In this document: one piece after another, positions 8,525 through 24,320 of the stretch
How positions within the stretch are numbered: position 1 is the first letter of the stretch
Layout of the letters: each line of letters starts with the position of its first letter
Origin: Candidatus Limnocylindrales bacterium
Lineage (GTDB): Bacteria > Chloroflexota > Limnocylindria > Limnocylindrales > CSP1-4
Direction: 5' to 3'
Length of the DNA: 58,200 nt
Assembly: GCA_052144055.1 (NCBI GenBank)
Contig: JBKQRF010000108.1
Coordinates: forward strand, 1 to 58,200
Position numbers and translations under genes: made by a program
Notes under the pieces: generated by a model
Database searches by the model: none
What the model saw: the letters and a program-made list of their open reading frames with translations, nothing else
What the model was told of the DNA's origin: nothing

Positions 8525-9487
8525 ATGCATGTCCCCGCCGCTCCGGCCACCGACTCGACCGCCGCCGACGCGGCGGGAGCGGACGTAGCTGCTCCGGCCA
8601 CCCAAGCTCCGGCCCCGGACGGCGCGTTCTCGGCGCCCGCCCGACGGCTGCTTCTGCCCGGCCGGCAACTCCTCGCGTTGTGCGAACGTGACATGCACCT
8701 GCGGCCGCTGCTGATCGTCAGCGACTTCGACGGCACGCTCGCGCCGATCGTGATGGACCCGTGGGGTGCGACCATCATGCCGGGCGCGCGCCGGGCCCTG
8801 CGGCGCCTCGCAGCCACCCCCGGCGTCCTCGTGGCGGTGCTGTCGGGGAGAACCGCGGCGGACCTTGCCGCTCGCGTGCGGGTCGGGGGCGCGCTCTACC
8901 TCGGAAACCACGGCGTCGAGCGGGCGATGCTGCCGCGCCACGTCCGCGCCGAGATGCTGCGGGTTCCGGAAGATCCCTGGCTCGCGTCGTACATCGGGGA
9001 CGCGAAACGGATGGCCGTCGAGGTGGCGGCGGCAGTCCCGCAGGCTTGGCTGGTGATCGAGCCGAAGGGGCCCGCGGTCGCGTTTCACTTCCGTGCGGCG
9101 CCCGATGTCGCCGACGCACGCCGGCGGGTGATCGAGGCAGTTGACCGGGCGGATCCGGCCGCCCGGCTCTCCCGCCTGTTCGGGCGGCGGGTCGTGGAAC
9201 TGCGCCCTCCGGGCGCGACGTCGAAGCGCGATGCGCTGCGGGAGCTGGTCGAAGAGCGGCACCCCGCCATGACCGTCATGCTGGGCGACGACGACGCCGA
9301 CGCCGAGGCGTTCGTCGTGCTGCGGGAACTGCGCGAAGCGGGCCTGACCCGCGGGCTTGCCGTTGCCGTTCACGCCCATGCTGACATGCCCGATTCGGTG
9401 GTAGCCGCCGCCGACGTGGCGCTTGCCTCCCCCGGCGAAACCGCGCGGTTCCTGGCGGGATTCGCGCGCGCGGTGGCGGGTTCTTAG
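8525..9487 (+). CDS. otsB: Trehalose-6-phosphate phosphatase (HAD IIB)
   Basis: DFDGTLAPI, VLSGR, GNHGVE, VAFHFR, VVELRP..SK and GDD. Confidence 0.88.
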   Translation: MHVPAAPATDSTAADAAGADVAAPATQAPAPDGAFSAPARRLLLPGRQLLALCERDMHLRPLLIVSDFDGTLAPIVMDPWGATIMPGARRALRRLAATPGVLVAVLSGRTAADLAARVRVGGALYLGNHGVERAMLPRHVRAEMLRVPEDPWLASYIGDAKRMAVEVAAAVPQAWLVIEPKGPAVAFHFRAAPDVADARRRVIEAVDRADPAARLSRLFGRRVVELRPPGATSKRDALRELVEERHPAMTVMLGDDDADAEAFVVLRELREAGLTRGLAVAVHAHADMPDSVVAAADVALASPGETARFLAGFARAVAGS

Positions 9488-10975: not shown

Positions 10976-12487
10976 TCACGGCAGGATCCCCAGCGCCACG
11001 CCGTGACTGACGTGGTCCAAGACGCCCGCGACCGGTCCTTGGATGAGGTTGAGCAGCGGAGCGGGGAAGACGCCGAAGACGACCACGAGTGCGGCCAGCG
11101 GCACGAGTGTCGCGATCTCGATCGGGACCATGTCGTGGAGATGGTCGCCGAGGCCCTGCAGGAAGTCGGAGAGGTCCCCGAACGCGACCTGCTGGAACAT
11201 GTACAAGAGGTACGTTGCGCCCAGGACCATGACGATGGCGGAGATCGCCGCCACGACAGGCGCCACGGCGAACGTCCCGAGGAAGACGAGGAACTCGCCA
11301 ACGAACCCGGAGAGCCCGGGCAGTCCGGCGCTGGCGAGCATGAAGAACCCGAGGGCCGTGGCGTAGAGCGGCATTCTGCCGGCCAGCCCGCCCATCACCG
11401 CGAAGCGGCGGTCGTGCGTCCGTTCGTAGATCACGCCCACGCAGAGGAAGAGAGCGCCAGTGATGAGGCCGTGGTTGACCATCTGGAGCACGGCGCCCTG
11501 CAGCGCCTGCGACTGGAAGGCGAAAATGCCCAGCGTCACGAACCCCATGTGGCTGACCGAGCTGTACGCCACCAGCTTCTTGAAGTCCGGCTGCACTACC
11601 GCCACCATCGCTCCGTAGATGATCGCGATCACCGAGAGCACGATGATCGCGGGGGCGAAGGTGTGCGCCGCGTCGGGGAAGAGCGGAAGGGAGTAGCGGA
11701 TGAAGCCGTATCCCCCCAGCTTCAGGAGGACACCGGCGAGGATCACCGAGCCCGCGGTCGGCGCCTCGACGTGCGCGTCGGGCAGCCAAGTGTGGAACGG
11801 GAACATCGGGATCTTGATGGCGAACGCCAGGAAGAACGTAACGAATGCGAAGGTCTGGATCTCGGGCGAAAAATGGAAGCCCGAAAGGTCGAGGTAGCTG
11901 AAGCTCCAGGTACCCGTGGCCGAGTGGTAGGCGTAGGCAGTGGCGAGGATGCCCACCAGCATCAGTAGCGAGCCGACGAGGGTGTACAGAACGAACTTGA
12001 TGGTGGCGTAGATGCGGTTCGGGCCGCCCCATATGCCGATGATCAGGTACATCGGCACGAGCACGACTTCCCAGAACACGTAGAAGAGGAACAGGTCGAG
12101 CGCGGCGAAGACGCCGATCATGCCGATCTCGAGGACAAGGAACGTGATCATGTATTCCTTCACGCGCTCCTGGATCGGGCGGAAGGAGGCCAGGACACTG
12201 ATCGCTGTCAGCAGCGTGGTGAGGACGATCAGGATGAGGCTGATGCCGTCGACGCCCACTTGGTAGTGGATCCCGAACAACGGGATCCAAGCCACGTCTT
12301 CCATGTACTGGAAGCCGCCGGCGCCGGTGGCGAAGCCGGCCAGCATGACCAGCGACCAGCCCAGGGTGACGAGCGTCGTGGCGAAGGCCAGCCAGCGCGC
12401 GACCTGGGGCCGGTCGCGCGGCACGAACGCGATCAGGATCGCTCCGACCAGCGGCGTGAAGATCGTGAGCGAGCAGAGGGGGAGCAT
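10976..12487 (-). CDS. nuoM: NADH-quinone oxidoreductase subunit M
   Basis: FYVFWE, IKIPMFPFHTWLPDAHVEAPT and KKLVAYSSVSHMG. Confidence 0.96.
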   Translation of the reverse strand: MLPLCSLTIFTPLVGAILIAFVPRDRPQVARWLAFATTLVTLGWSLVMLAGFATGAGGFQYMEDVAWIPLFGIHYQVGVDGISLILIVLTTLLTAISVLASFRPIQERVKEYMITFLVLEIGMIGVFAALDLFLFYVFWEVVLVPMYLIIGIWGGPNRIYATIKFVLYTLVGSLLMLVGILATAYAYHSATGTWSFSYLDLSGFHFSPEIQTFAFVTFFLAFAIKIPMFPFHTWLPDAHVEAPTAGSVILAGVLLKLGGYGFIRYSLPLFPDAAHTFAPAIIVLSVIAIIYGAMVAVVQPDFKKLVAYSSVSHMGFVTLGIFAFQSQALQGAVLQMVNHGLITGALFLCVGVIYERTHDRRFAVMGGLAGRMPLYATALGFFMLASAGLPGLSGFVGEFLVFLGTFAVAPVVAAISAIVMVLGATYLLYMFQQVAFGDLSDFLQGLGDHLHDMVPIEIATLVPLAALVVVFGVFPAPLLNLIQGPVAGVLDHVSHGVALGILP

Positions 12488-12493
12488 CTCTGT

Positions 12494-14452
12494 CTACCTT
12501 GCCGTGATCACGAGGAGGCCGGCAGCCATCGCGAGCAGGCCAATGGCAATGCCCAGGGCGTAGTTCTGGACGCGGCCGGTCTGGATGCGGCGCACCTCGC
12601 GCCCCGAGAACACGGTGAGCGTCCCCACGCCGTTGACGACGCCGTCGACCACGTGACCGTCGAACCACCAGGCGGCGCGAGCCACCACCCCGCCAATCAC
12701 GTAGAAGAGGCCGTGGTACAGGTCGTCGAACCACCACTTGTTGCGGGAGGCGATGTAGAGGGGGCGGAGGCGCGCGGTGGTCGCCTCGACAACCGCGGGC
12801 TTCGGTTCGACGTCGCGGCCCGGCAGCCGCAAGCCGAAGAGCCGGACGGCCGTGACCAGGCCGAGGGTCGCGAGGGCGACGCTCACCAGGAGCAGCGCGC
12901 CGTCGACACCGAAGACCTGGAACGCCTCCTGGTGTACGCCCAGCGTCTGGTCGGCCTGCGCGAAGACCGGATCGAGCCACTGGTGCACGAGGCCGGAGTC
13001 CGGCGGCCAGCCGATGGCGAGGCCGAGCAGCGCCGCGGGGACCGCCAGTAGGACCAGGGGCACCCACATGGCGGGCGGCGACTCGTGCGGGTGGACATCC
13101 GGGGCGACGTGGCTGGGCCCGTAGAAGGTCTTGCCCATCAGCCGGAACATGTAGAAGGCGGTCATGGCCGCCACCACCGCCCCGATCAGCCAGACGACGT
13201 AAAAGCCGTTCCGGAAGCTCGCCCCGAGGATCTCGTCCTTGCTGAAGAAACCCGCCAGGGGCGGAATCCCGGAGATCGCGATCGAGGCGATGAGCATCGT
13301 CGCGTGCGTGATGGGCATCTTGCGCCACAGGCCGCCCATCTTGTTCATGTCCTGCTCGTCGTGGACCCCGTGGATCACGGAACCGGAGTCGAGGAACAGC
13401 AGGCCCTTGAAGAAGCCGTGAGTCATGAGGTGGAAGATCGCCGCGGCGTAGGCACCCACGCCGAGCGAGGCGAACATGTAGCCCAGTTGGGACAGGGTCG
13501 AGTACGCCAGCACGCGCTTGATGTCCGTTTGGGTCAACGCGATCGTCGCGGCTAGGAGCGCGGTGAAGATCCCGACCGCGGCCACGATCACCATCGCCGC
13601 GGGCGCGTGGCTGAAGATCGGGTTGGCACGAGCGACCATGTAGACCCCGGCGTTCACCATCGTGGCGGCGTGGATGAGGGCCGATACGGGGGTGGGGCCC
13701 TCCATAGCGTCGGGCAGCCATACGTGGAGCGGGAACTGCGCGCTCTTGCCGACCGCGCCGCAGAAAAGCAGCAGCGCAATGCCGGTGATCTGCCAGGTCT
13801 GGATCTGACCGGAGGCCAGCATCTGCGGCAACTTTGTAAACACGTCGGAGAAGTTGAGCGAGCCCACGGTGGTCCAGATCGCCCAAATCCCGATGCTGAA
13901 CCCGACGTCGCCGACGCGGTTAACCAGGAACGCCTTCTTGGCGGCCAGCGCCGCGCTCCGGCGCCGGTACCAGAATCCGATCAGCAGGTAGCTCGACAGG
14001 CCCACCAGCTCCCATGCCATGAACAGCAGCAGGAAGTTGCCCGCCAGCACCAGCAGCAGCATGCTGAACATGAAGAAGTTCAGGTAGGCGAAGAAGCGCC
14101 ACTTGCCGGGGTCGTGCGCCATGTACCCGATCGAGTAGACGTGCACGAGCATGCCGATCGTCGTCACCACGATCAGCAGCGCCGCGGTCAGGTTGTCCAC
14201 CATGAAGTTGGCGTCGAGCTGGAAGGTCCCGGCCGGGATCCACGTGTAGACCGTAAAGTGCAGCCCGTCCGGTCCGAAGGCACCGGTCAGCTGGCCGAAG
14301 ACGACGAGCATGCCGGCCGCCCAGGTGAGGAGGATGGCCCCAACCGAGATCGCCCAGGAGTTGTCGCCGAGCCGCCTCCCGAATACGGCGGTCAGCGCGA
14401 ACCCTGCGATCGGCAGGACCAGGAGCGCGAGGACGAGCGCCTCGTTCGACAT
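12494..14452 (-). CDS. nuoL: NADH-quinone oxidoreductase subunit L
   Basis: [34 protein letters not shown] and QTGRVQNY. Confidence 0.96.
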
Positions 14453-14458: not shown

Positions 14459-14770
14459 CTAGTCCCGCATCGTGTCGTACTCGTCGACGAGTGGCGTGCG
14501 CCGGTTGCGGAAGATCGCGATCACGATCGCCAGCCCCACCGTCGCCTCTCCTGCCGCGACCGCGATGACCATTAGCGCGATGACAGACGCGTGAACCGTC
14601 AGCCGGGGCGTGAAGGCGCCGAATGCGACGATCGCCAGGTTGACGGCGTTCAGCATCAGCTCGATCGACATCAGCATCGCGATGGCGTTGCGTCGGGCGA
14701 GGAACCCGAACATCCCGGTGCAGAAGAGCAGCGCGGACAGCACAAGGTAGGCATCGAGAGAATGGCTCAC
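14459..14770 (-). CDS. nuoK: NADH-quinone oxidoreductase subunit K
   Basis: [20 protein letters not shown] and [11 protein letters not shown]. Confidence 0.95.
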
Positions 14771-14771: not shown

Positions 14772-15326
14772 TCACCGCTCCCTCACCTGCGGTTCCTCGC
14801 GTTTGGCCAGGAACACGCCACCGATCACAGCGGCGAGGAGCAGCACGCTCACGACCTCGAGGGGGAGGACGTAGTCCTTGAAGAGCAAGTGAGCCAGCGC
14901 GTCCGTGGCCGTGTGGAGTGGGTGGCCCACCGTGTCGGGCCAGGCCGTCGACGTTACGACGCCGATCAGCATGGCGGCCAGCACGATCGCAGCCACGGCC
15001 CCCGCCCACGCCTGGTGGTGGAACACGAGCCTGGTGGGACCCGCCTTCGTCTGCGTCAGCATGATGGCGAACAGGACGAGGATGCTGATCGCGCCGATAT
15101 AGATGAGCACCTGGGCGGCGGCGACGAGCGGCGCATCCAGCATGACGTAGATCCCTGCCAGGGCCGCGAACGAGACGATCATCGCCAGCCCCGAGCGGAT
15201 GATGTCGCGCCCGAGGACCACGGTCAGGGCGGCCCCGAGCATCGTCCCAGCGAGGGCGAGGAACAGGAGATCGGCCCAGGACCACCCCAGCCCCGGGATC
15301 GTCGCGCCTGCCAGCGCGTTCGACAT
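14772..15326 (-). CDS. nuoJ: NADH-quinone oxidoreductase subunit J
   Basis: [19 protein letters not shown] and [22 protein letters not shown]. Confidence 0.93.
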
Positions 15327-15335
15327 CGACTCCCC

Positions 15336-17924
15336 TTACCTCGCGGGCCCGGACGGCAGCTGGTGCGCGACCGCGGTGTGCCCGTTGCCGTGGCCGTCCC
15401 CGGCGCCGTCCGCGTTGCCGCGCCCGGGACCGATGCGGGCTGGCAGCACGGGCAGCAGCCGGTCGGTCGACACCTCGCGGCCGGCGGCAAGCGCACGCGA
15501 CATCCAATCCCGTTCCCGGCGGACGTAGCTCATCTCGGTGTCGTGCTGTACAGCGGAGTACGAGAGCAGGTCGATGTGCGGGATCTCTCGGCTCTCGTGC
15601 GCGAGCTCGAAGTCCGGGCCGCAGCGCAGCGCGTCGTACGGACAGGCGTCCACGCAGATCCCGCAGAGGATGCAGCGGGACTCGTCCACGTCGTACTGCT
15701 CGAGTACGCGCGGCTTCGGCATCAGGGCTCCCGTCGGGCATGTCTCGGCGCACCGACCGCATGACACGCACGGCGTGTCGTTGAGGCTCATGTCGAGCGG
15801 CGTCGTCACCAGGGCGTCCATGCCGATCCGCATGAAGTCGTAGCATGCGGCCCCCACGACCTCGGCGCAGACGCGGGCGCAGCGGCCACAGTCGATGCAC
15901 CGGGACGGCTCGCGCAGGATGAAGGCGTGGCTGTCGTCGCGGGTGTAGTCGTGGTTGTACCCGGTGAAGCGGTTCTCCAGGACGCTGCGGTAGCTGAACC
16001 CGGTGCGTGACGGCTCGAGCGTCGCGAGCGTCGTGCCGTACTCGATGCCGAGTCGCCGCAGGTCGCAGTATCCGATGGCCTCGCACGTGCACTGCAGGCA
16101 GCGGCGAGCCTCGTCCATCGCCTCGGCCTGCGTGTAGGGGATCTCGTACTCGACGTAGCTCCTGTTGCGGACGTCGGCCGGCATCGAGCGCAGGCGGTGC
16201 CGAGCCTCCTTGAGCTCCCCGGTGAATGGGACAATCGAGAGGAACGCCGGCTGCGGCTCCGCGATGGTCTGTCGCGTCCGGACGGCCGCCAAGTCCATGC
16301 CCTCCAGGTACGCGTCAATGGCGTACGCGGCGCGGCGGCCCTCCGCGATGGCCTGGACCACCGTGGTCGCGCCGACCCGGACGTCACCCGTCCCGAAGAC
16401 GCCCGCGCGGCCCGTGGAGAAGGTCACAGCGTCGGCGGCGAGCCGGTTGCGGTTTGCCTTGACACCATCGGAGCCGTGGTCCAGCCAGCTTAGGTCCGGC
16501 CCCTGCCCGATGGCCAGCAGGACCCGGTCGCACTCGATCGTGAACTCGGTACCAGGGACCGGCTCCGGGCGGCGTCGTCCGGACGCATCGGGCGCGCCCA
16601 TTCGCATCCGCTGGAACTCGACGCCGGTCACCGCATCGCGCTCGTCGGTGATGACGCGCGTGGGCGCGGCCTGGAAGATGGCGCGGGCGCCCTCCTCAAT
16701 CGCCTCGTGGACCTCGCTCGAGGCCGACATCTCCTTCATGTCGCGGCGATAAACGAGCGTCACCTCGCTGGCGCCCTGGCGGAGCGAGGTCCGCGTGCAG
16801 TCCATGGACGTGAAGCCGCCGCCGATCACGACGACCCGGCTGCCCTGGTGCCCGGGGAACGGAAGTCCGAGGGTGGCGGTCCGCAAGTATTCGAGGCCGT
16901 CGAAGACGCCGTCTGCGTCCTCGCCCGGGACCCCCAGCTTGTTCGTGTTGTAGCAGCCGATCGCGACGCACACCGCGTCGTATCCCTGGTTCTGCAGGTC
17001 GTCGATCGTGAAATCCGTGCCAAGGGCCATGCCGCATTCGAAACGGCCGCCCAGGTCCAGGATCGACTGATACTCGCCGTCGACGACGCTGTCCTTCGGC
17101 AGCCGGTACTCGGGGATGCCGTATCTCAGCATGCCGCCGGGCTTCTCATCGCGCTCGTAGATGGTCACGTCGTGGCCGTCGATCAGCAGGTAGTAGGCCG
17201 CGGACGATCCGGCGGGGCCGCTCCCGATGACGGCCACCCTCTTGCCGCTCCTGGGCTGCAGTTCGAAGGGGAGGGGCGCCTTCTGGCCCTCGGCCTGGAG
17301 ACGGAGCACCTGGTCGCCGGCGTATCGGTGGCTGTCCCGGATGGCGATCGCCTCGTCCACCTCGTCGCGGCGGCAGTGTTCTTCGCAGGGTGCCGGGCAC
17401 ACGCGCCCTAAAACGCTCGGGAACGGGATGGTGCGCTTGAAGATGCGCGCCGACTCGACGAAGTCGCCCTCGGTGTTGGCCTTCAGGAAACCCGGGATGT
17501 CGATGTGGCTAGGGCACTTGTTCTGGCACGGCGGCAGGCAGTAGGCGTTGTGGTCGCTGAAGATCAGCTCGAGGTTGGTGTGCCGGATGGCCCGCACGCG
17601 CTCGGTCTGCGTGCGCACCACCATGCCCGCCTCCGCCGCGCGGGCACAACTGATTGGCGGGTGCTCCTCGCCTTCCACGTCGACCACGCACATCCGGCAG
17701 GCGCCGAACCCGGGCAGCTTCGGCTCGTAGCAGAGCGTGGGGATCTCGATGCCGTTGTCTCGGCAGACCTCCAAGATAGTCTGGCCCGCGCGACCCGTGA
17801 CCTGCCGCCCGTCGACCTCGATCGTGAAGGCCGGCGCGGACTGAGGCCGCTGCGGCGATTGCGTCTCGAAGAGACGCTCCGCAAGCGTCGGCGCAGTTGC
17901 CTGGATCTCGATCAGGTCGGCCAT
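15336..17924 (-). CDS. Chimeric Fe-S flavoprotein: NuoG/HydA-type [2Fe-2S] domain + GltD-like FAD/NADPH oxidoreductase + 2x[4Fe-4S] domain + C-terminal half of NuoI
   Basis: IPTLC..GACRMC..C; PPCQNKCP..GRVCPAPCEEHC; IGSGPAG; IGGGFTSMDC..YRR; EARRCLQC; CIDCGRCARVC and CVSCGRCAETCP; then YDVDESRCILCGICVDACPYDAL..FELA. Confidence 0.88.
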   Translation of the reverse strand: MADLIEIQATAPTLAERLFETQSPQRPQSAPAFTIEVDGRQVTGRAGQTILEVCRDNGIEIPTLCYEPKLPGFGACRMCVVDVEGEEHPPISCARAAEAGMVVRTQTERVRAIRHTNLELIFSDHNAYCLPPCQNKCPSHIDIPGFLKANTEGDFVESARIFKRTIPFPSVLGRVCPAPCEEHCRRDEVDEAIAIRDSHRYAGDQVLRLQAEGQKAPLPFELQPRSGKRVAVIGSGPAGSSAAYYLLIDGHDVTIYERDEKPGGMLRYGIPEYRLPKDSVVDGEYQSILDLGGRFECGMALGTDFTIDDLQNQGYDAVCVAIGCYNTNKLGVPGEDADGVFDGLEYLRTATLGLPFPGHQGSRVVVIGGGFTSMDCTRTSLRQGASEVTLVYRRDMKEMSASSEVHEAIEEGARAIFQAAPTRVITDERDAVTGVEFQRMRMGAPDASGRRRPEPVPGTEFTIECDRVLLAIGQGPDLSWLDHGSDGVKANRNRLAADAVTFSTGRAGVFGTGDVRVGATTVVQAIAEGRRAAYAIDAYLEGMDLAAVRTRQTIAEPQPAFLSIVPFTGELKEARHRLRSMPADVRNRSYVEYEIPYTQAEAMDEARRCLQCTCEAIGYCDLRRLGIEYGTTLATLEPSRTGFSYRSVLENRFTGYNHDYTRDDSHAFILREPSRCIDCGRCARVCAEVVGAACYDFMRIGMDALVTTPLDMSLNDTPCVSCGRCAETCPTGALMPKPRVLEQYDVDESRCILCGICVDACPYDALRCGPDFELAHESREIPHIDLLSYSAVQHDTEMSYVRRERDWMSRALAAGREVSTDRLLPVLPARIGPGRGNADGAGDGHGNGHTAVAHQLPSGPAR

Positions 17925-17937
17925 GCTGACATCCGGG

Positions 17938-19275
17938 TCACCGGGGAGCCGCCGCGACGGGCGTCACGCGCAGCAGATTGCACACTCCGGCGGGACACGT
18001 GCCGGCGTTGAAGTGGGCGTCGAACTCGTCTCTGAAGTATCGCATCCCGCTCGTGAGCGGGTTGGGCGCCAGGATCCCGTGTCCGCAAAGCGAGCCGTCC
18101 CGCACGTCGGCGGCGAGGTCCACTAAGAGCTGCGGATCAGTTGGGCGCGCGCGTCCAGAGGTCGCGCGGCCGGTGAGCTCGAAGAGTCTCCTCGTCCCGA
18201 TCCGGCACGGGATGCACTTCCCACAGGACTCGTCGGACATGAAGCGTTCCATGAGGCGCCCGAGTTCCACCACGCAGGCCCGCTGGTCCACGACCAGGAT
18301 CTGGCCGGACCCCAGGATCGCGCCGGCAGCCTCGAGCGCGGCTGGGTCGAGCGGTGTGTCTAGCCGGGACTCTGGAAGGAACCCTCCGGCAGGGCCCCCG
18401 ACGAGCACGGCTTTGAAGGCGCTCCCTTTCGCCATGCCGCCGCCGACGTGGTCAAGGATCTCGCGCAGCGGCGTACCCATGGGGACTTCGGCGACGCCCG
18501 TCAGCCGCGCGTTGCCCGAGACCTGCACCAGCTTGGTACCGGCGAGTCCGTTCCGCCCGGCCGCTGCGAACGCCTCTGCGGTGTGGCGCACGATCCAAGG
18601 AACCGACGCGAGCGTCTCGACGTTGTTGACAACGGTGGGGTGGCCGTCCAGCCCGCGCACCGACGGGAACGGCGGCCGCTGGTCGGGCATGCCCCGCTGT
18701 GACTGCAGCGCACGGATAAGCACCGTCTCTTCGCCCAAAACGAAGGCGCCCCGAAGCGGCCGCACCTCGATCTGCACGTCGCAGCCGCGACCGCTGGCGC
18801 TGGGCCCGAGGTACTTAGCATCTTCCGCCGCCGCGGCGGCCGCGCGGAGCCGCTCGACCGCCAGGCCGTACTCGGCATTCACCGCGACGTAGGCGCGGCG
18901 TGCGCCGATCGCGTAGGCCGCGAGGGCCGTCCCTTCGATCACGCCATGCGGGTCGAGCTCCATGAGGGTGCGGTCGACGAACGCGCCGGGGTCGGCCTCG
19001 ATCCCATTGGCGATCACCACCCGGTCCGGGTCATCCTGCGAGCGGGCCGACCGCCACTTGTTGGCGGTGGGGTAGCCGGCGCCGCCTCGGCCACGCAGCC
19101 CGGCGTGGCCGACGAGCGCGATGAGCATGTCCGGACTGGATGCGACCGCCTGCCGCCAGGCCGCCCACGCCCCGACGTGCTCCGCCGCCCCGAGCCCTTC
19201 GTCCGGATCGTACTGCCCTGCGGCGGCAAGGGCGATGCGTGGCCAGCCGTGGGGCGTGGCGAGGATAGCGGCCAT
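17938..19275 (-). CDS. nuoF: NuoF/HoxF/HydB-like FMN- and NADH-binding subunit
   Basis: GLRGRGGAGYPT..KW, EADPGAFVDR, GEET, PTVVNNVETL, ESCGKCIPCRIG..SLCG and C-terminal HF..GTCPAGVC. Confidence 0.88.
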   Translation of the reverse strand: MAAILATPHGWPRIALAAAGQYDPDEGLGAAEHVGAWAAWRQAVASSPDMLIALVGHAGLRGRGGAGYPTANKWRSARSQDDPDRVVIANGIEADPGAFVDRTLMELDPHGVIEGTALAAYAIGARRAYVAVNAEYGLAVERLRAAAAAAEDAKYLGPSASGRGCDVQIEVRPLRGAFVLGEETVLIRALQSQRGMPDQRPPFPSVRGLDGHPTVVNNVETLASVPWIVRHTAEAFAAAGRNGLAGTKLVQVSGNARLTGVAEVPMGTPLREILDHVGGGMAKGSAFKAVLVGGPAGGFLPESRLDTPLDPAALEAAGAILGSGQILVVDQRACVVELGRLMERFMSDESCGKCIPCRIGTRRLFELTGRATSGRARPTDPQLLVDLAADVRDGSLCGHGILAPNPLTSGMRYFRDEFDAHFNAGTCPAGVCNLLRVTPVAAAPR

Positions 19276-20105
19276 CAGGCGAGTCCGGGCCGTGCGTCGC
19301 CGGCCAGCGCTCGCGCCAGCTGCGCGGTGGCAGCGGCGGTCATGTCCTCTTGCCGCCGGCCGTCAAGCGTCACCCACGGCGTACCACCGTTCTCGCCGTG
19401 GCAGTCGTCGGACGCGAGTGCGACCGACCCGTCCGGCGTCGTTCCCCCGAGTGAAACCCCGAGGCCGTCCTCGAGCGCCGCGCGGACGGCGCCGGCGCCG
19501 AGTAGCGCGCAGGATGGGCAGCGGCAGATGCCGAGCCGGTGCATCGGGGGAGGCTCGAGACGCAGCTGTCCGTAGAAGGACGCCGTGCCGTAGACCTCGG
19601 CGTACCAGGCCCCGGTCGCGTTCGAGATGTGCTTGACGGCGGCCACGGGGATGTACCCGTAAATCTCCTGAGTCCCCTCAAGGATGCGCAGGAGGCGCCG
19701 AGGGTCGTGGTCTTCTTGCTCGAGGAGCGCGTCCAGCGCGGTCGTATCCGCGGGGTCGAACGACGCGAAGTTCGGGTCGGGAACCGGCCGGCCGGAGCGG
19801 CGCAGGGCCTGCTCCTCGCGGCGTTCGGCGTACTGCTCGGGCGGTCCCCAGTGCACGTGGAACCGGTCCTTTGTGTCAGTGCCGCCCATGTCGATGCACT
19901 CGATGGGGCAGGCCATCGCGCACTGGAAGCAGGTCTCGCACTTGAGCGTCCCAAGCTCGTCGTATAGCAGCTGCAGCCGGCCCCGGTGTCGCGGCGGGAT
20001 CTCCGGCGCCTGCTCTGGGTACTGGACGGTGACCTTCGGTTCGAAGAATCGGCGCAGGGTCAGGGCCATGCCCTTCACGATCCCGATGCCGGGGACGAAG
20101 CTCAT
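19275..20105 (-). CDS. Fusion of NuoI N-terminal half and NuoE-like domain
   Basis: ATG 20105 overlaps the nuoH stop. NuoI part: KGMALTLRRFFEPKVTVQYPE..RHRG..CETCFQCAMACP. NuoE part: LLRILEGTQEIYGYIP..EVYGTASFY..CRCPSC..TTPDG..C. Confidence 0.88.
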   Translation of the reverse strand: MSFVPGIGIVKGMALTLRRFFEPKVTVQYPEQAPEIPPRHRGRLQLLYDELGTLKCETCFQCAMACPIECIDMGGTDTKDRFHVHWGPPEQYAERREEQALRRSGRPVPDPNFASFDPADTTALDALLEQEDHDPRRLLRILEGTQEIYGYIPVAAVKHISNATGAWYAEVYGTASFYGQLRLEPPPMHRLGICRCPSCALLGAGAVRAALEDGLGVSLGGTTPDGSVALASDDCHGENGGTPWVTLDGRRQEDMTAAATAQLARALAGDARPGLA

Positions 20106-21457
20106 GGATGGACCACCAGGATGGCGAGCGCTGTGAGGAACAGGTTGACGAGCGCGGCTGGCAGGAGCCACTTCCACGCCAGCCCCATCAGCTGGTCGAT
20201 GCGGACGCGCGGCAGCGTGGCCCGCATCCACACGAAGGTGAATACGAAGACGTAGGCCTTGGCGAAGAACCAGACGATGCCCAGCAGCGCGTCGAGGTTG
20301 ATCAGCAGGTAGATCCCGAGCGCGCCGAGGGCAAGCAGCAAGAACAGCACGAGCCCGAGGATCCACGCGCGCCAGAACGGCCACTCCGATCGCAGCATCC
20401 AGACGGGGAGCGCGAACAGCACGGAACCCACCACGGGCACGAGGACGATAAGGGCAAGGAGCGCCAGCCCAAGCTCGCTGGACGTGAAGAGGATGTGCAC
20501 CGGCCACGGCCACGGAACCGGCGCGGTCCAGCCGCCGAAGAAGAGCACGACGGCGAGACCGGAGAGCAGGAAGACGTTGACGTATTCCGCAAAGAAGAAG
20601 AAGCCGAAACGCATGCCGCTGTACTCGGTGGCGAAGCCGGCCACGATTTCACTGTCGGCCTCGGTCAGATCGAACGGCGTGCGGTTCGCCTCGGCAGTGG
20701 CGGCGATGAAGAAGACCAGGAACGCGAGCGGCTGGCGCACGACGAACCAGTCGAGGAAGCTCCCCGATTGGGCCTGCACAATCCCGTTCAGGCTCATCGT
20801 GCCGGCCAGCATGATCACGCCTGCCACGGATAGTGTCAGCGGGATCTCATAACTGACCATCTGCGCGGCGCTCCGCAGGCCGCCCAGCAGCGAGTACTTA
20901 TTGAAGCTCGACCAGCCGGCCATCAGGAGCCCGACCACGCCGAGGCCGCCGACGCCGAAGAAGTAGAGCAGGCCCACGTTGAAGTCGACGCCGAAGAGGC
21001 CGGGGCCGAACGGCAGCACCATGAAGGCCATGACGCTCCCGACGAAGGTGACCACGGGGGCGAGCGTGAAGACGGTGACGTCGGCTCCGGTGGGCGTGAA
21101 GTCTTCCTTGGAGAGCACCTTGAGGCCGTGGACAACCGACGCGAGGGTGCCCCACGGGCCGACGCGGTTGGGACCGATCCGCAGGTTCATGAACGCGATC
21201 ACCTTCAGCTCCAAGAAGATGATCACGAAGGCGGTGGGGATGGTGAACAGCAGCACTGCGGTCGCCGCGACGACGAACCGGACGATCGCAACGTTTGCAA
21301 TCAGGACCCCGCCGATCCAGATGACGATCGCCGGGATGAGCCCGGTGCCGACGCCGGCCAGGAGTACCACGAGGAGCAGAACGAGCGCGCCGAGCAACGG
21401 CACGACGACTTTGCCCGAGGGGGAGAGCCGGCCGGCGGACCGGGCCACGACGCTCAC
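20102..21457 (-). CDS. nuoH: NADH-quinone oxidoreductase subunit H (extended, 451 aa)
   Basis: ELKVIAFMNLRIGPNRVG, LRSAAQMVSYE, EANRTPFDLTEADSE..TEYSG and RATLPRVRIDQL. The GTG start overlaps the nuoD stop. Confidence 0.93.
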   Translation of the reverse strand: MSVVARSAGRLSPSGKVVVPLLGALVLLLVVLLAGVGTGLIPAIVIWIGGVLIANVAIVRFVVAATAVLLFTIPTAFVIIFLELKVIAFMNLRIGPNRVGPWGTLASVVHGLKVLSKEDFTPTGADVTVFTLAPVVTFVGSVMAFMVLPFGPGLFGVDFNVGLLYFFGVGGLGVVGLLMAGWSSFNKYSLLGGLRSAAQMVSYEIPLTLSVAGVIMLAGTMSLNGIVQAQSGSFLDWFVVRQPLAFLVFFIAATAEANRTPFDLTEADSEIVAGFATEYSGMRFGFFFFAEYVNVFLLSGLAVVLFFGGWTAPVPWPWPVHILFTSSELGLALLALIVLVPVVGSVLFALPVWMLRSEWPFWRAWILGLVLFLLLALGALGIYLLINLDALLGIVWFFAKAYVFVFTFVWMRATLPRVRIDQLMGLAWKWLLPAALVNLFLTALAILVVHP

Positions 21458-22668
21458 TTGTCGATCCCGCCCATCACTGGGTCGAGGCTGGCCATGACCG
21501 CCATCGTGTCCGCCAGCAGATTGCCGGGCATCAGTGGCACCACGGCCTGCAGGTTGACGAACGACGGGTCGTGGATGCGGAAGCGGAACGGCTGGTCTGT
21601 CCCGTCGCTGATCGCGAAGCAGCCGTACTGGCCGCGCGGACTCTCCACAGCTGCCCACGCGCGGCCGGGTCGCGGGGTGATGCGACGCGGCAGCTGGGCC
21701 ATGACCGGGCCGTCCGGCATCTGGTGCATGACTTGGTCAATGATGTGGATGCTCTGCTTAATCTCGTCGATCCGCAGCATGTACCGCGCGTACGAGTCCC
21801 CCTCCTCACGCGTGGGGATCTCGAACTCCAGCTCTGGGTACACGGAGTACGGATGCGCGCGCCGGACGTCGTACGGGACGCCGCAGGCGCGGACGTTGGG
21901 CCCGCTCATTCCGAGCCCGAGCGCAGTCCGCCGGTCCACTCGGCCGAGTCCTCGCGTCCGCCGTACGAAGATCTCGTTCTGGTTCAGCAGCGCGGTGTCG
22001 GCCTCCACTTGGGCGAGTGCGTGACCCATCCAGTCCCCCAGGCGGCTGAAGAACTCGTGGTTCAGGTCTCCGTTGACGCCGCCGATCCGCATGTAATTGA
22101 ACAGCATCCGCTGGCCGGTCAGCGCTGCCAGCATCTCCACGATCTCATCGCGCTCGATGAAGCTGTACAGGATCGGCGTGATCCCGCCCAGGTCCAGCGC
22201 CATCCAGCCCATGAACAGGGCGTGGCTGGCGATCCGGTTGAGCTCGCAAGACAGGACGCGGATGTACTCGGCGCGTCGCGGGACCCGCAGGTCGAGGAGG
22301 TGCTCGAACGCCATCACGGGCGCTAGCTCGTTGAAGAGCGAGCTCACGTACTCCAGCGGGTCCGTGTAGCAGATCGCGTGGTGATAGTCGGCGTTCTCAC
22401 TGAGTTTCTCGATCCCGCGGTGGAGATAGCCCAGAACCGGGTCGAGGTCTACCACCCGCTCCCCCTCGATCTTGACGACCAGCCGGAGAACGCCGTGCGT
22501 CGAGGGGTGCTGCGGCCCCATGTTCACCAGCATCTCGCCGTCCCGGAGCGTGTAGAACTCCGCCTCGCGCTCCGTGCGCGGCGCGTACGGGGGGATCGCG
22601 TCATAGATGGTGGCGGGGGTCTCGACGAGGACCCGCGGATCGTCGAGTGACGGGATCCGGGTGACCAT
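21454..22668 (-). CDS. nuoD: NADH-quinone oxidoreductase subunit D
   Basis: NMGPQHPSTHGVLRL, GYLHRGIEK, ELNRIASH and VESPRG. No NiFe-binding CxxC motifs. Confidence 0.95.
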   Translation of the reverse strand: MVTRIPSLDDPRVLVETPATIYDAIPPYAPRTEREAEFYTLRDGEMLVNMGPQHPSTHGVLRLVVKIEGERVVDLDPVLGYLHRGIEKLSENADYHHAICYTDPLEYVSSLFNELAPVMAFEHLLDLRVPRRAEYIRVLSCELNRIASHALFMGWMALDLGGITPILYSFIERDEIVEMLAALTGQRMLFNYMRIGGVNGDLNHEFFSRLGDWMGHALAQVEADTALLNQNEIFVRRTRGLGRVDRRTALGLGMSGPNVRACGVPYDVRRAHPYSVYPELEFEIPTREEGDSYARYMLRIDEIKQSIHIIDQVMHQMPDGPVMAQLPRRITPRPGRAWAAVESPRGQYGCFAISDGTDQPFRFRIHDPSFVNLQAVVPLMPGNLLADTMAVMASLDPVMGGIDK

Positions 22669-23238: not shown

Positions 23239-23973
23239 TCAGTGCCCGGCCGGAACGGTCGGACCGACCGCGCGCTCCGCCCAGTGGCCGCGCCGCTCCA
23301 TGATGAGCTGCTGCAGCTTCATCATCCCGTAGATGAGCCCCTCCGGACGGGGCGGACAGCCCGGCACGTAGACATCGACGGGCATGATGCGATCGATGCC
23401 CTGGACCACCGAGTAGGATCGCTTAAAGCGCCCGCCGGAACACGTGCAGTCGCCCATCGCCACGCACCACTTGGGCTCGGGCATCTGCTCCCACAGGCGC
23501 AGCAGCGGCCCCGCCATCTTGGTGGTGAGCGTCCCTGCCACGATCAGTACGTCGGCCTGTCTCGGGCTTGCCCGGAACGGGAACATGCTGAAGCGGTCGA
23601 CGTCGTTGCGACTCGTCGCGGTCGACATCATCTCGATCGCGCAACAGGAGAGTCCGGAAAGGAGCGGCCAGAGGCTGTTGGCTCGCAGCAGGTCGAGCAG
23701 GTAGTCGGCCTGGGCCGGAACCACCTGGAGCGCACCCCAACGGCCGTTGTCACCCGTCTCGGAACCTTCGGCTACTTGCTCCAAGTGCGTGATGGCGACC
23801 GGCCGTCCGCCCCCGTACGCCGCCGGATTTGAGGACGACCAAAAGTCGTTGGCGACCACGATGGGCTCACCGATTGCCTGATCGGGCGGAACGATCAGGC
23901 CCCGATCAGCATCACTCGCGGCGACCTCGGAAGTGGCGCCTTCGGGCGGCAGGCGGTCGGGACTCAGCGCCAT
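23239..23973 (-). CDS. nuoB: NADH-quinone oxidoreductase subunit B
   Basis: [28 protein letters not shown] and [13 protein letters not shown]. Confidence 0.95.
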
Positions 23974-24320
23974 CGCAGCACTCCCTTGCGCCAGGCGTAG
24001 GCCAGACCCAGGGTTAGGATGGCGACGAAGATCGCCATGTCCACAAAGCCGCCGAGCAGGAGGTCACGGAACACGATCGCCCAGAGATAGATGAACACGA
24101 CCTCGATGTCGAAGGCGACAAAGAGCAGGGCGTAGATGTAGAACGAGAGGCCGAACCGACCCCACGTGTCGCCGAACGTGTCGATCCCCGACTCGTACGG
24201 CAGTCCCTTGTGGCGATCCCCTCGGTTCCGGTGACTGATGAGCCAGGCGAGCCCGATCGTCATGAACACGAACGAGACGCCCGCGAACAGGAAGCCGAGG
24301 ACATACCAGAGTCCGGTCAC
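23964..24320 (-). CDS. nuoA: NADH-quinone oxidoreductase subunit A
   Basis: [20 protein letters not shown] and [10 protein letters not shown]. Confidence 0.95.

What the first reader, a model, noticed from the sequence alone, without database searches (positions are those of the whole stretch)
15336..20105. Complex I with a split nuoI: a three-gene diaphorase module inserted in-frame inside NuoI
Seen: the order is nuoABCDH-[X]-JKLMN with no intact nuoI. The first gene of X (20105-19275) begins with the NuoI N-half (KVTVQYPE..RHRG..CETCFQCAMACP, one Cys motif) and continues as NuoE. The last gene (17924-15336) ends with the NuoI C-half (YDVDESRCILCGICVDACPYDAL..DFELA..R, ~15722-15540). A nuoF-like gene lies between them. 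Established: ABCDHIJKLMN is the order of 11-subunit complex I-like enzymes that lack an input module. In 2x[4Fe-4S] ferredoxin folds such as NuoI, each cluster takes 3 Cys from one motif and 1 from the other. Inference: an E-F-G/GltD module (~15723-19880) entered the inter-motif loop of nuoI. Clusters N6a/N6b would then form only across two polypeptides, tying the new input module to the quinone module. I know of no described complex I with this architecture.
Basis: partly seen in the sequence, partly recalled or inferred. Interest (0 to 1): 0.92.

Follow-up and report, generated by a model that had tools for sequence, protein, structure and literature searches.

The report
Complex I with a split NuoI
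In this soil bacterium the respiratory complex I gene cluster has its NuoI iron-sulfur subunit cut in two, with each half fused to a protein of an NADH/NADPH-oxidising module that sits between them, an arrangement that recurs in many related genomes and that I could not find described in print.

Summary
On the minus strand the order is nuoA-B-C-D-H, a NuoI N-half fused to NuoE, a NuoF-like gene, a [2Fe-2S]-GltD-ferredoxin protein fused to the NuoI C-half, then nuoJ-K-L-M-N. The halves match NuoI profile positions 1-67 and 71-112 of 121. They abut on solved NuoI chains. No intact nuoI was found in the 93%-complete genome.

It is not an assembly artefact. Contigs from three other studies bridge both junctions. 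All 80 related loci from genome assemblies carry the N-half::NuoE fusion. Every family sampled in the class has the split. A second clade, about 33% identical, has the same operon and the same C-half junction. Related fusion families carry Thermoleophilia labels.

New here: the inserted module comes from the StnABC/Nfn-Bfu transhydrogenase family, not from canonical NuoEFG. Its inactive FdhF-like domain is replaced by the NuoI C-half, and the extra Fe-S domains of the bifurcating subunit are missing.

Assembly of clusters N6a/N6b across two polypeptides, and dual NADH/NADPH input, are inferred. My literature searches found no description.

The parts
23964..24320 (-). nuoA
   Evidence: ORF. It is the only copy in the genome.
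23239..23973 (-). nuoB (carries cluster N2 in canonical complex I)
   Evidence: ORF. tblastn finds it, plus a 74%-identical paralog on contig C41.
22680..23180 (-). nuoC
   Evidence: ORF. It is the only copy in the genome.
21454..22668 (-). nuoD
   Evidence: TIGR01962 match, E 5e-105. ORF.
20102..21301 (-). nuoH. The start is uncertain: the open frame runs up to 21658.
   Evidence: ORF. It is the only copy in the genome. Its stop overlaps the start of the next gene as ATGA.
19797..20105 (-). NuoI N-half (P0001, about aa 1-103). It contains the N-terminal segment, the first CxxCxxCxxxCP motif (CETCFQCAMACP) and the inter-motif strand.
   Evidence: TIGR01971 positions 1-67 of 121. It aligns to 7ar7_I residues 23-94. 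It covers positions 8-95 of my intact-NuoI profile. The four cysteines are invariant in 41 aligned sequences.
19278..19748 (-). NuoE-like thioredoxin-fold [2Fe-2S] domain of P0001 (about aa 120-276), fused behind the NuoI N-half through a conserved linker.
   Evidence: PF01257, E 2.7e-25. The Cys pattern is C194-x-C196-x2-C199 ... C235, where the canonical second pair has only one Cys.
17938..19275 (-). NuoF-like flavoprotein (P0002; FMN/NADH site and N3-type [4Fe-4S]).
   Evidence: PF01512 and PF10589. The best solved relatives are the B subunits of Stn/Nfn-Bfu (9bov_B, 9n5u_B, 8oh5_B; E 3e-120 to 3e-117), aligned only to their residues about 103-526. Canonical NuoF chains score E 1e-81 or weaker.
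17604..17828 (-). N-terminal [2Fe-2S] domain of P0003 (aa 33-107; NuoG N1b / StnC C4 type).
   Evidence: PF13510, E 2.4e-20. It lies within the single alignment to StnC-type chains.
16302..17540 (-). GltD/NfnB-like FAD and NAD(P)H domain with two [4Fe-4S] sites (P0003 aa 129-541).
   Evidence: PF14691 and PF07992. PRK12814, E 5.8e-167. The GSGPAG, GGGF..MD and YRR stretches are invariant in 50 orthologs and match 9bov_A.
15723..15920 (-). HydA/HoxU/NuoG-type 2x[4Fe-4S] ferredoxin domain of P0003 (aa 669-734; motifs CIDCGRCARVC and CVSCGRCAETCP).
   Evidence: PF22117 and PF12838. It aligns to StnC-type chains. All 8 Cys are invariant in 31 sequences from two clades.
15441..15719 (-). NuoI C-half (P0003, about aa 736-828). 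It contains the strand PRVLEQYDVDESR, the second motif CILCGICVDACP, DFELA, and a C-terminal ..RLLPVLP.
   Evidence: TIGR01971 positions 71-112. It aligns to 7ar7_I residues 99-139. It covers positions 86-130 of my intact-NuoI profile. The 4 Cys are invariant in 31 sequences. The match of the C-terminal LLP stretch comes from the MAFFT alignment only.
15336..15440 (-). Low-complexity Gly/His/Asn-rich tail of P0003, plus the stop codon.
   Evidence: Translation. Its length and sequence vary among orthologs.
14772..15326 (-). nuoJ
   Evidence: ORF. In 59 of 59 clade-1 loci that reach it, it lies within 500 nt downstream of the NuoI C-half.
14459..14770 (-). nuoK
   Evidence: ORF and tblastn.
12494..14452 (-). 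nuoL
   Evidence: ORF and tblastn.
10976..12487 (-). nuoM
   Evidence: ORF and tblastn.
9484..10962 (-). nuoN (start approximate)
   Evidence: ORF and tblastn.

Best explanation
This is the organism's only complete complex I that I found. It is a lineage-wide variant in which the electron-input module is not NuoEFG. Instead it is a three-protein module descended from the soluble StnABC/Nfn-Bfu transhydrogenase family:
- a NuoE-like protein
- a NuoF-like FMN protein
- a StnC-like protein with a [2Fe-2S] domain, a GltD-type FAD/NADPH domain and a ferredoxin domain

The module is encoded inside the nuoI position of an A-B-C-D-H-I-J-K-L-M-N operon and is covalently tied to the complex. The NuoI N-half (first Cys motif) is the N-terminus of the NuoE-like protein. 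The NuoI C-half (second Cys motif) replaces the inactive FdhF-like domain at the C-terminus of the StnC-like protein.

Shown here: the anatomy, its conservation, the ancestry of the module, and the failure to find any intact NuoI.

Inferred:
1. The two halves re-form one 2x[4Fe-4S] NuoI fold. Each cluster (N6a, N6b) would then take three Cys from one polypeptide and one from the other, which docks the module onto NuoB/D/H.
2. Electrons from NADH (FMN site) and from NADPH (FAD site) merge on the StnC-like Fe-S wire. They leave through the ferredoxin-domain branch, which is a dead end in Stn, to N6a, N6b, N2 and quinone.
3. The enzyme does not bifurcate, because the F-like subunit lacks the extra Fe-S domains of StnB/BfuB.
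4. Origin: an Stn-like operon was recruited to an 11-subunit-type operon, probably through a stage with duplicated nuoI sequence, since both halves keep the same roughly 10-position strand. This probably happened once, with later spread between Chloroflexota and Actinomycetota-labelled lineages.
For: Anatomy:
- The halves match NuoI profile positions 1-67 and 71-112 of 121.
- They abut on solved NuoI chains.
- They cover positions 8-95 and 86-130 of a profile of 10 intact Chloroflexota NuoI.

A single operon:
- The nuoH stop and the P0001 start overlap as ATGA. The P0001 stop and the P0002 start overlap as TGATG.
- Gaps of 13 and 9 nt lie around P0003.

No alternative subunit found:
- No intact NuoI in the own genome.
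- No canonical NuoG.
- Only an orphan second NuoF-like gene.
- Only one set of nuoA, C, H, J, K, L, M and N.

Motif parity: P0003 has three ferredoxin-type motifs. Two of them align with the paired motifs of StnC-type chains, which leaves one orphan. P0001 has exactly one.

Selection: the 4 Cys of the N-half are invariant in 41 sequences down to 27% identity. The 12 Cys of motifs A, B and C are invariant in 31 sequences from two clades.

Conservation:
- Clade 1, 80 loci: I_N and E in one ORF in 80 of 80. GltD through I_C in one ORF in 53 of the 60 loci that reach it. nuoJ follows in 59 of 59.
- Class sample: families f1 29/29, f2 4/4 and f3 33/33 match P0001 at E <= 1e-45. Family f4 (0/33) and f83 (0/1) do not at that threshold. 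All 5 genomes I then checked from f4 and f83 have the two halves about 4.1 kb apart on one strand.
- Clade 2 (32-38% identity in I_N and E; 43-49% in F and 45-50% in GltD): 79 of 79 and 25 of 25 loci, with the same gene order. The junction CPTG..P.R.L..Y.[VL]DESRC is shared.

Ancestry:
- P0003 aa 35-761 align in one stretch to 9bov_A residues 6-699 (E 5e-157) and to S. ovata StnC 8oh5_C residues 5-700 (E 4.5e-145).
- P0002 is closest to StnB/NfnB chains.
- Kumar 2023 (PMC10482914; abstract and passages read) describes StnC as [2Fe-2S] + GltD + NuoG-like + an inactive FdhF-like domain (aa 683-1172), with clusters C1/C2 as a non-functional branch.

Not an artefact.
Against: - No structure or complex prediction could be run. 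That the halves form one fold, and where the module docks, is untested.
- No RNA, protein or enzyme data exist for this locus.
- In canonical complex I the exit to N6a is from the His-ligated cluster N5 (recalled, not tested here), not from the ferredoxin-domain branch. The proposed exit route would therefore be a different geometry, and it is conjecture.
- In 7 of 60 clade-1 loci, GltD and I_C are not in one uninterrupted frame. I did not examine whether these are sequencing frameshifts or real splits.
- The genome has PntB, so a second NADH/NADPH link is not obviously needed.
- The NuoE-like domain has lost one canonical Cys, so its cluster may be altered or absent.
- The genome is a 93%-complete MAG with 4.9% contamination. 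An intact nuoI on unassembled DNA cannot be strictly excluded for this one genome, although it was also not found in 10 other class genomes.
- The profile E-values are for a database of two sequences.
Confidence: 0.72

Rival explanations
1. There are two separate enzymes. The three inner genes encode a soluble Stn-like NADH/NADPH oxidoreductase that merely landed in the nuo operon and destroyed nuoI. The NuoI-derived ends are vestiges, and the membrane complex is inactive or takes electrons from something else.
For: The module's closest solved relatives are soluble enzymes. P0001 and P0003 would look like complete soluble subunits apart from their NuoI-derived ends.
Against: Vestiges would decay. 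Instead all 8 NuoI cysteines and the flanking signature residues are invariant across clades that are only about 30% identical elsewhere in P0001. The FdhF-like domain, which mediates tetramer formation in Stn (PMC10482914), is gone and is replaced precisely by the NuoI C-half. The ten other nuo genes are intact and single-copy except nuoB and nuoD, and they are conserved in order in 78 of 80 and 75 of 80 loci. They would have no link from the input module to N2 without NuoI. No substitute NuoI was found.
Confidence: 0.08
2. The architecture is the same, but the enzyme couples three redox partners instead of simply oxidising NAD(P)H. It might act as a quinone-linked transhydrogenase, or run in reverse, using proton motive force and quinol to make NADPH. 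It might also confurcate NADH and NADPH.
For: There are two flavin sites on one Fe-S wire. The ancestry is from a reversible transhydrogenase (PMC7483475, search listing only; PMC10482914, passages). Schut 2022 (PMC9304861; passages) proposes membrane-bound Bfu-type complex I variants.
Against: P0002 aligns only to residues about 103-526 of StnB-type chains. Pfam finds no additional Fe-S domain in it. The parts that Schut 2022 treats as defining for true bifurcating BfuB (clusters B2-B5) are therefore missing. The genome already has PntB. This is the only complete complex I found in the genome, so ordinary NADH oxidation is the more economical role.
Confidence: 0.15
3. The split is an assembly or binning artefact, a chimeric contig, or a frameshifted gene.
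For: The window comes from a fragmented MAG (345 contigs, 4.9% contamination).
Against: A contig from another study spans the whole 4.9 kb without gaps, and two more studies bridge both junctions. 80 of 80 genome loci carry the fusion, including contigs of up to 2.9 Mb and one record titled as a chromosome. 79 metagenome loci of a second clade also carry it.
Confidence: 0.01

Closest known systems
StnABC / Nfn-Bfu transhydrogenase (Sporomusa ovata Stn, PDB 8oh5; also 9bov and 9n5u)
   Same: It has three subunits of the same types and in the same gene order (E-like, F-like, G-like). P0003 aa 35-761 align in one stretch with StnC residues 5-700: [2Fe-2S], the GltD-type FAD/NADPH domain with two [4Fe-4S], and the NuoG-like ferredoxin domain. 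P0002 is closest to StnB/NfnB.
   Different: The FdhF-like C-terminal domain of StnC (aa 683-1172) is absent and replaced by the NuoI C-half. The F-like subunit lacks the N- and C-terminal Fe-S domains of StnB. The E-like subunit carries the NuoI N-half. The genes sit inside a nuo operon. The presumed acceptor is quinone through N2, not ferredoxin/NAD+.
Canonical 14-subunit complex I (NuoA-N; NuoI = Nqo9/TYKY with clusters N6a/N6b)
   Same: It has the same ten other Q-module and membrane subunits, in the same order. The NuoI sequence is fully accounted for by the two halves. The input module belongs to the same superfamily as NuoEFG.
   Different: NuoI is not one polypeptide. The EFG-type genes lie within nuoI rather than between nuoD and nuoH. 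The G-type subunit lacks the molybdopterin-like domain and carries a GltD flavin domain. A second nucleotide site is present.
11-subunit complex I-like enzymes (nuoABCDHIJKLMN) with other input modules: cyanobacterial NDH-1/ferredoxin, Fpo/FpoF, Campylobacter Nuo with flavodoxin (the last three recalled)
   Same: The flanking gene order A-B-C-D-H ... J-K-L-M-N is that of the 11-subunit type (Moparthi and Hagerhall 2011, PMC3144371; search listing and abstract only). Lineage-specific input modules are a known theme.
   Different: In those enzymes NuoI stays intact, and the input module is a separate protein or genes elsewhere. Here the module is fused into NuoI.
Nuo-Bfu and Mbh-Bfu (Schut et al. 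2022, PMC9304861; passages read)
   Same: These are predicted membrane-bound complexes in which Bfu-type ABC genes lie in the middle of a nuo or mbh cluster and replace NuoEFG. One Mbh-Bfu subunit carries an extra flavin site.
   Different: Those keep the bifurcating BfuB with its extra clusters. The passages I read do not say that they split NuoI ('nuoi' occurs 0 times in the main text). Supplementary files could not be read.
mbx-like operons with a GltD-type flavoprotein at the NuoI position (Degli Esposti 2015, PMC4758237; passages read)
   Same: A GltD-related NAD(P)-binding flavoprotein is encoded at the place of nuoI in a complex I-related operon.
   Different: There NuoI is described as substituted, with no NuoE or NuoF genes, and the proposed direction is NAD(P)+ reduction. 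Here both NuoI halves are kept and fused.

Membership tests
Respiratory complex I (Nuo/NDH-1) | Q-module and membrane-arm genes nuoA, B, C, D, H, J, K, L, M and N together in one operon | tested here: met
   ORFs. tblastn. NuoD TIGR01962, E 5e-105 (the match is in two pieces and below the curated cut-off).
Respiratory complex I (Nuo/NDH-1) | NuoI as one polypeptide with two CxxCxxCxxxCP motifs | tested here: not met
   the best matches are the two halves (54 and 42.9 bits against a cut-off of 113.05), in two different ORFs 4.1 kb apart.
Respiratory complex I (Nuo/NDH-1) | Canonical NuoE, NuoF and NuoG input module | tested here: not met
   NuoG TIGR01973 matches only positions 1-98 and 117-205 of 606, both inside P0003. 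The NuoF and NuoE matches are below the curated cut-offs. P0002 is closer to StnB than to NuoF.
Respiratory complex I (Nuo/NDH-1) | NAD(P)H:quinone oxidoreductase activity coupled to proton translocation | not testable with these tools
   This needs membranes or purified enzyme.
NuoI (TIGR01971) | Eight cluster-ligating cysteines and coverage of the full-length profile | tested here: met
   Met only jointly by two proteins. Positions 1-67 lie in P0001 and 71-112 in P0003. 4 + 4 Cys are invariant. Neither protein passes the whole-protein cut-off alone.
StnABC / Nfn-Bfu | C/A subunit with [2Fe-2S], a GltD-type FAD/NADPH domain and NuoG-like Fe-S domains in one chain | tested here: met
   a single alignment of P0003 aa 35-761 to 9bov_A 6-699 and 8oh5_C 5-700.
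StnABC / Nfn-Bfu | FdhF-like C-terminal domain of StnC (aa 683-1172), which mediates the tetramer | tested here: not met
   The alignment ends at StnC residue about 700. P0003 continues as the NuoI C-half.
StnABC / Nfn-Bfu | BfuB/StnB with additional Fe-S clusters (B2-B5), held to define the bifurcating core (PMC9304861, passages) | tested here: not met
   P0002 (445 aa) aligns to residues about 103-526 of the 584-aa chains. Pfam finds only Complex1_51K, SLBB and NADH_4Fe-4S.
NuoE / HoxE thioredoxin-like [2Fe-2S] proteins | C-x4-C ... C-x3-C ligand pattern | tested here: inconclusive
   C194-x4-C199 is kept. Of the second pair only C235 is kept. An extra, near-invariant C196 might substitute. 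The distant fusions P0187 and P0252 keep the canonical pattern.
GltD / NfnB-type NAD(P)H flavoproteins | Fer4_20 plus a two-Rossmann Pyr_redox_2 domain with FAD and NADPH glycine motifs | tested here: met
   PF14691, E 5e-18, and PF07992, E 8.5e-27. GSGPAG, GGGF..MD and YRR are invariant in 50 orthologs. That YRR marks NADPH specificity is recalled, not tested.

The most novel reading that the evidence does not exclude
A widespread soil and freshwater lineage respires with a complex I that built its own input module a second time, independently of NuoEFG. It did so by capturing an electron-bifurcating-type transhydrogenase and welding it into NuoI. Clusters N6a/N6b would be shared between two polypeptides. 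NADH and NADPH would both feed quinone through two flavins. Electrons would leave the module through the branch that is a dead end in Stn, giving a docking geometry unlike that of any solved complex I.
Probability: 0.45. Interest if true: 0.88.

Novelty: new variant of a known kind. Interest (0 to 1): 0.8.

Why it matters
Complex I is usually presented as three modules that were joined once, with NuoI as an invariant connector. Four points follow from this locus.

1. The connector itself can be split and used as a covalent docking device for a foreign input module. This would be a second, independent way of acquiring an NADH module. It bears directly on how the N-module joined the 11-subunit ancestor.

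2. It predicts a natural 2x[4Fe-4S] ferredoxin fold reconstituted from two chains, with ligands swapped between chains. That is of interest for Fe-S assembly and for protein engineering.

3. It predicts direct respiratory oxidation of NADPH. That would change how redox balance is modelled in Limnocylindria, and in the Thermoleophilia-labelled lineages whose related fusion proteins I saw without their gene context. Runs labelled soil and peat metagenomes hold this stretch, and peat runs were laid on it.

4. Automatic annotation names P0001-type proteins only 'NADH-quinone oxidoreductase subunit E' or 'NAD(P)H-dependent oxidoreductase subunit E'. Pipelines that require nuoI, or 14 subunits, may therefore score these organisms as lacking complex I.

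Tried and rejected
Structure tests:
- Complex prediction on the two halves with four 4Fe-4S ligands was not available.
- Structure prediction was first deferred. Two jobs were then accepted, polled unfinished and both failed.
- No fold evidence exists in this report.

Tools that gave nothing:
- The protein-atlas search could not read P0187 or P0206.
- The first listing of cluster members timed out. The second returned no taxon names.

Expression: no RNA holder was listed for the stretch, so nothing can be said about expression.

A slip of mine: my NuoH query was cut out of frame, so the NuoH columns there are meaningless. This was corrected.

A measure that fails for a technical reason: in clade 2 the test 'NuoH ends within 150 nt of I_N' is met in only 12 of 77 loci. 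I attribute this to tblastn alignments that stop short of the gene end; I did not check it.

Readings considered and dropped:
- A recent horizontal insertion visible in base composition. GC is 0.68-0.72 across the module against 0.65-0.70 in the flanks, which is no clear signal.
- A canonical NuoEFG elsewhere. Only an orphan NuoF-like gene on C90 was found.
- A second complex I. Contig C41 has only nuoB and nuoD paralogs.
- The idea that the GltD domain is needed as the only NADH/NADPH link. PntB is present.

Taxon of clade 2 and of the P0206, P0257 and P0252 families:
- Only source labels are available: Thermoleophilia once, Thermoleophilia three times and Actinomycetia once.

Literature:
- Searches found no description of a split NuoI.
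The supplementary gene-cluster figures of PMC4758237 and PMC9304861 could bear on novelty and were not seen.

Full report
WHAT IS THERE

The window is G+C-rich, 0.65-0.74 over the stretch examined. On its minus strand lies a tight gene row:
- nuoA 24320-23964
- nuoB 23973-23239
- nuoC 23180-22680
- nuoD 22668-21454
- nuoH about 21301-20102
- three inner genes
- nuoJ 15326-14772
- nuoK 14770-14459
- nuoL 14452-12494
- nuoM 12487-10976
- nuoN about 10962-9484

The inner genes are P0001 (20105-19275, 276 aa), P0002 (19275-17938, 445 aa) and P0003 (17924-15336, 862 aa). The nuoH stop and the P0001 start overlap as ATGA. The P0001 stop and the P0002 start overlap as TGATG. The remaining gaps are 13 and 9 nt. 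The row therefore reads as one operon.

THE TWO HALVES

P0001 aa 12-79 match the NuoI family TIGR01971 at profile positions 1-67 of 121. Residues 126-266 match the NuoE-type thioredoxin-like [2Fe-2S] domain.

P0003 aa 739-780 match TIGR01971 positions 71-112. These residues follow a [2Fe-2S] domain (aa 33-107), a GltD-type Fe-S flavoprotein region (aa 129-541) and a NuoG/HoxU-type ferredoxin domain (aa 669-734).

On solved NuoI chains the two pieces abut:
- 7ar7_I: residues 23-94 and 99-139
- E. coli 7awt_I: residues 23-85 and 91-128
- P. denitrificans 8qby_I: residues 17-83 and 93-135

I built a profile from 10 intact NuoI of other Chloroflexota. Against it, P0001 aa 8-97 cover positions 8-95 and P0003 aa 736-780 cover positions 86-130 (E-values there are for two target sequences only). 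The whole of NuoI is accounted for. Both halves keep the strand that precedes the second Cys motif: 'PPEQYAERRE' in P0001 and 'PKPRVLEQYD' in P0003. In the MAFFT alignment the C-terminal NuoI stretch 'YTKE.LL.P' also lines up with P0003 '..RLLPVLP' near aa 828. This last match rests on the alignment only.

IS THERE ANOTHER NuoI OR ANOTHER COMPLEX I?

The assembly has 3.84 Mb in 345 contigs, is 93% complete and has 4.9% contamination. In it:
- The two halves are the best NuoI matches and nothing reaches the family cut-off.
- NuoG matches occur only inside P0003.
- The only other NuoF-like gene is an orphan on contig C90, beside unrelated genes.
- nuoA, C, H, J, K, L, M and N are single-copy.
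- Contig C41 carries a nuoB-nuoD paralog pair, 74% and 77% identical, without nuoA, C or H.

This is therefore the only complete complex I that I could find.

NOT AN ARTEFACT

Twenty public runs from 13 studies hold part of the stretch. I laid contigs from four studies, leaving out the likely source. One 8862-base contig (X6) spans 15300-20200 with 80 substitutions and no gap. Contigs of X4 and X5 bridge both fusion junctions.

HOW WIDESPREAD

Clade 1:
- P0001 has more than 120 full-length relatives at 60-98% identity. Their source labels include Candidatus Limnocylindrales and Chloroflexi.
- A scan of species genomes gave 539 relatives. The best 80 loci are MAGs labelled Chloroflexota/Limnocylindria, apart from three titled otherwise (L045, L071, and the top-listed hit P0086). 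They include contigs of up to 2.9 Mb and one record titled as a chromosome.
- In these 80 loci, I_N and NuoE share one ORF in 80 of 80.
- The C-half is reached in 60 loci. GltD through I_C form one uninterrupted frame in 53 of those 60. I did not examine the other 7.
- All detected genes are colinear in 78 of 80.
- nuoJ follows within 500 nt in 59 of 59 (an earlier, looser count gave 54 of 59).

The class:
- In a sample of 101 genomes of the class, families f1 (29/29), f2 (4/4) and f3 (33/33) match P0001 at E <= 1e-45. Families f4 (0/33) and f83 (0/1) do not.
- I then checked five f4/f83 genomes with the NuoI profile. All five have positions 1-67 in an ORF of 238-303 aa and positions 69-112 in an ORF of 803-873 aa. 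In four of the five the two lie about 4.1 kb apart on one strand; in G403 they are on different contigs. None has an intact NuoI.
- In a phylum sample, 51 of 55 genomes outside the class have an intact-type NuoI match at E <= 1e-20, against 0 of 6 inside it.
- These tallies include a few genomes flagged unpublished (G038, G145, G272, G344, G442, G451).

Clade 2 and other families:
- The 50%-clustered library holds I_N::NuoE fusions at about 30% identity: P0187, P0206, P0252 and P0257. All have the NuoI N-part plus NuoE.
- The P0187 family has at least 120 members, one labelled Thermoleophilia. It was traced to 80 metagenome loci.
- All 12 long loci that I listed show A-B-C-D-(H)-[I_N::E]-F-[2Fe2S-GltD-ferredoxin-I_C]-J-K-L-M(-N), as far as each locus reaches. 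Identity to the window proteins is 32-38% for I_N and E, 43-49% for F, 45-50% for GltD and 56-66% for the ferredoxin domain and I_C.
- Counts over all 80 loci: I_N and E in one ORF in 79 of 79, GltD through I_C in one ORF in 25 of 25, nuoJ following in 22 of 22.
- P0187 finds full-length matches only inside the window's own class among 401 Chloroflexota genomes. Clade 2 therefore lies outside the sampled rest of that phylum.
- The P0252 family has at least 120 members, labelled Thermoleophilia three times and Actinomycetia once. Its gene context could not be fetched.
- The C-half junction 'CPTG..P.R.L..Y.[VL]DESRC' and all 12 cysteines of the three P0003 motifs are invariant across 31 sequences of both clades.
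- The four cysteines of the N-half motif are invariant across 41 sequences down to 27% identity.
- The shared junction argues for one origin of the fusion.

WHERE THE MODULE CAME FROM

P0003 aa 35-761 align in a single stretch with:
- 9bov_A residues 6-699 of 1178 (E 5e-157)
- 8oh5_C residues 5-700 of 1172 (E 4.5e-145)
- 9n5u_A 'NfnA'

I take 8oh5_C to be StnC of Sporomusa ovata. The paper holds the code '8oh5' once and describes StnC as 1172 amino acids, but the passage with the code was not among those I read.

P0002 is closest to the matching B subunits (9bov_B, 9n5u_B 'NfnB', 8oh5_B; E 3e-120 to 3e-117). Bifurcating hydrogenase HydB chains come next. Canonical NuoF chains score E 1e-81 or weaker.

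From the passages of Kumar et al. 2023 that I read (PMC10482914), StnC consists of:
- a [2Fe-2S] part (aa 1-101)
- a GltD-like FAD/NADPH domain (aa 102-565)
- NuoG-like Fe-S domains
- a catalytically inactive FdhF-like domain (aa 683-1172), whose clusters C1/C2 are a non-functional branch and which mediates tetramer formation

P0003 is thus an StnC cut at about residue 690, with the FdhF-like domain replaced by the NuoI C-half.

P0002 aligns only to residues about 103-526 of the 584-aa StnB-type chains, and it has no further Pfam Fe-S domain. Schut et al. 2022 (PMC9304861; passages) treat the extra clusters B2-B5 as the mark of truly bifurcating BfuB, and note that non-bifurcating homologues lack them. 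By that criterion this module is of the non-bifurcating kind.

HOW IT MOST LIKELY WORKS (inference)

In a 2x[4Fe-4S] ferredoxin fold each cluster takes three Cys from one motif and the fourth from the other. This is established knowledge, recalled here.

P0003 has three such motifs. Two of them correspond to the paired motifs of StnC-type chains. The third is an orphan. P0001 has exactly one. Pairing the two orphans re-creates NuoI and ties both proteins to the place where NuoI sits, between the input module and N2 in NuoB.

The FMN site of P0002 and the FAD site of P0003 both look intact. GRGGAGYP, GEET and the N3 cysteines are present in P0002 (the motif names are recalled). GSGPAG, GGGF..MD and YRR are invariant in P0003 and are shared with 9bov_A. 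The simplest reading is a complex I that oxidises NADH and NADPH.

The C-half follows the ferredoxin domain after about 20 residues, at the place where StnC continues into the domain holding C1. I therefore propose that electrons leave through that branch to N6a. This would differ from the canonical N5-to-N6a route (recalled). It is the least secure step.

The rivals are set out in their own section: two separate enzymes with vestigial NuoI ends, a three-partner or reverse-running enzyme, and an artefact.

COMPARISON AND NOVELTY

The enzyme works like complex I with a lineage-specific input module, which is a known theme. Its module is a member of the Stn/Nfn-Bfu superfamily by sequence, but it fails two of that family's defining features: the FdhF-like domain and the BfuB extra clusters. 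It also fails the complex I criteria of an intact NuoI and a canonical NuoEFG.

The nearest published parallels that I read are:
- Nuo-Bfu and Mbh-Bfu (PMC9304861)
- mbx-like operons in which a GltD-type flavoprotein is said to substitute NuoI (PMC4758237; passages)

Neither describes a split NuoI in the text I could read.

Searches that found nothing relevant:
- 'split NuoI', 'NuoI fusion' and similar phrases: 0 papers
- Limnocylindr* with nuo: 0 papers
- Limnocylindria with complex I
- Ellin6529 with NADH dehydrogenase
- combinations of NuoI, NuoE, GltD, NADPH and fusion

Spero et al. 2015 (PMC4453560; passages) does not mention it. Subscription journals and supplements were not searchable.

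VERDICT

I file it as a new variant of a known kind. The open points are physical reassembly of the halves, nucleotide specificity and direction of operation.

Noticed in passing
G000 contig C41 (L089 4325-6315, and 6329-7549 on the other strand): A second nuoB-nuoD pair, 74% and 77% identical to the window's, without nuoA, nuoC or nuoH. It lies after a fused 2-oxoglutarate dehydrogenase E2/E1 gene. Next to it, on the other strand, is a Methyltransf_28 (PF02636) gene, the Pfam family that a preprint read gives for the complex I assembly factor NDUFAF7. The contig ends at 7645, and contamination is 4.9%, so the origin of the contig is uncertain.
   Followed up: partly
window 19797-19880 and 15680-15719 (P0001 aa about 76-103; P0003 aa 736-748): Both NuoI halves keep a copy of the strand that precedes the second Cys motif (positions 86-95 of my profile). 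This hints at an ancestor with duplicated nuoI sequence flanking the module, not a clean insertion. In clade 2 I did not see the N-half copy by eye.
   Followed up: partly
window 19400-19530 (P0001 aa 192-240): The NuoE-like domain of clade 1 keeps C-x4-C, but it has only one Cys of the canonical C-x3-C pair. It has gained a near-invariant Cys (C196) between the first two. The distant fusions P0187 and P0252 keep the canonical pattern.
   Followed up: partly
window 17325-17330 (P0003 H199): By my count along the 9bov_A alignment, an invariant His in P0003 sits where that chain has K170. Lys170 is reported as an unusual ligand of cluster C7 in S. ovata StnC. The equivalence of numbering between 9bov and 8oh5 was not checked.
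   Followed up: no
window 15339-15440: P0003 ends in a Gly/His/Asn-rich low-complexity tail (..GNADGAGDGHGNGH..). Its length varies widely among clade-1 orthologs. In clade 2 it is replaced by an acidic tail.
   Followed up: no
window 18830-18923 (minus strand): ARAGORN calls a 94-base 'tRNA-Val (tac)' inside the NuoF-like coding sequence. Rfam finds no RNA family anywhere in the window. It is most likely a false positive.
   Followed up: partly
window 24471-25754 (minus strand): A 427-aa open frame directly upstream of nuoA has no Pfam match at E <= 0.01. In DNA this G+C-rich it may or may not be a real gene.
   Followed up: no
G000 contig C90 (L090 2776-3987, minus strand) and contig C76 (10422-11804): On C90 there is an orphan NuoF-like gene (403 aa) with no NuoE-like or NuoG-like neighbour. 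On C76 there is a PntB transhydrogenase gene.
   Followed up: partly
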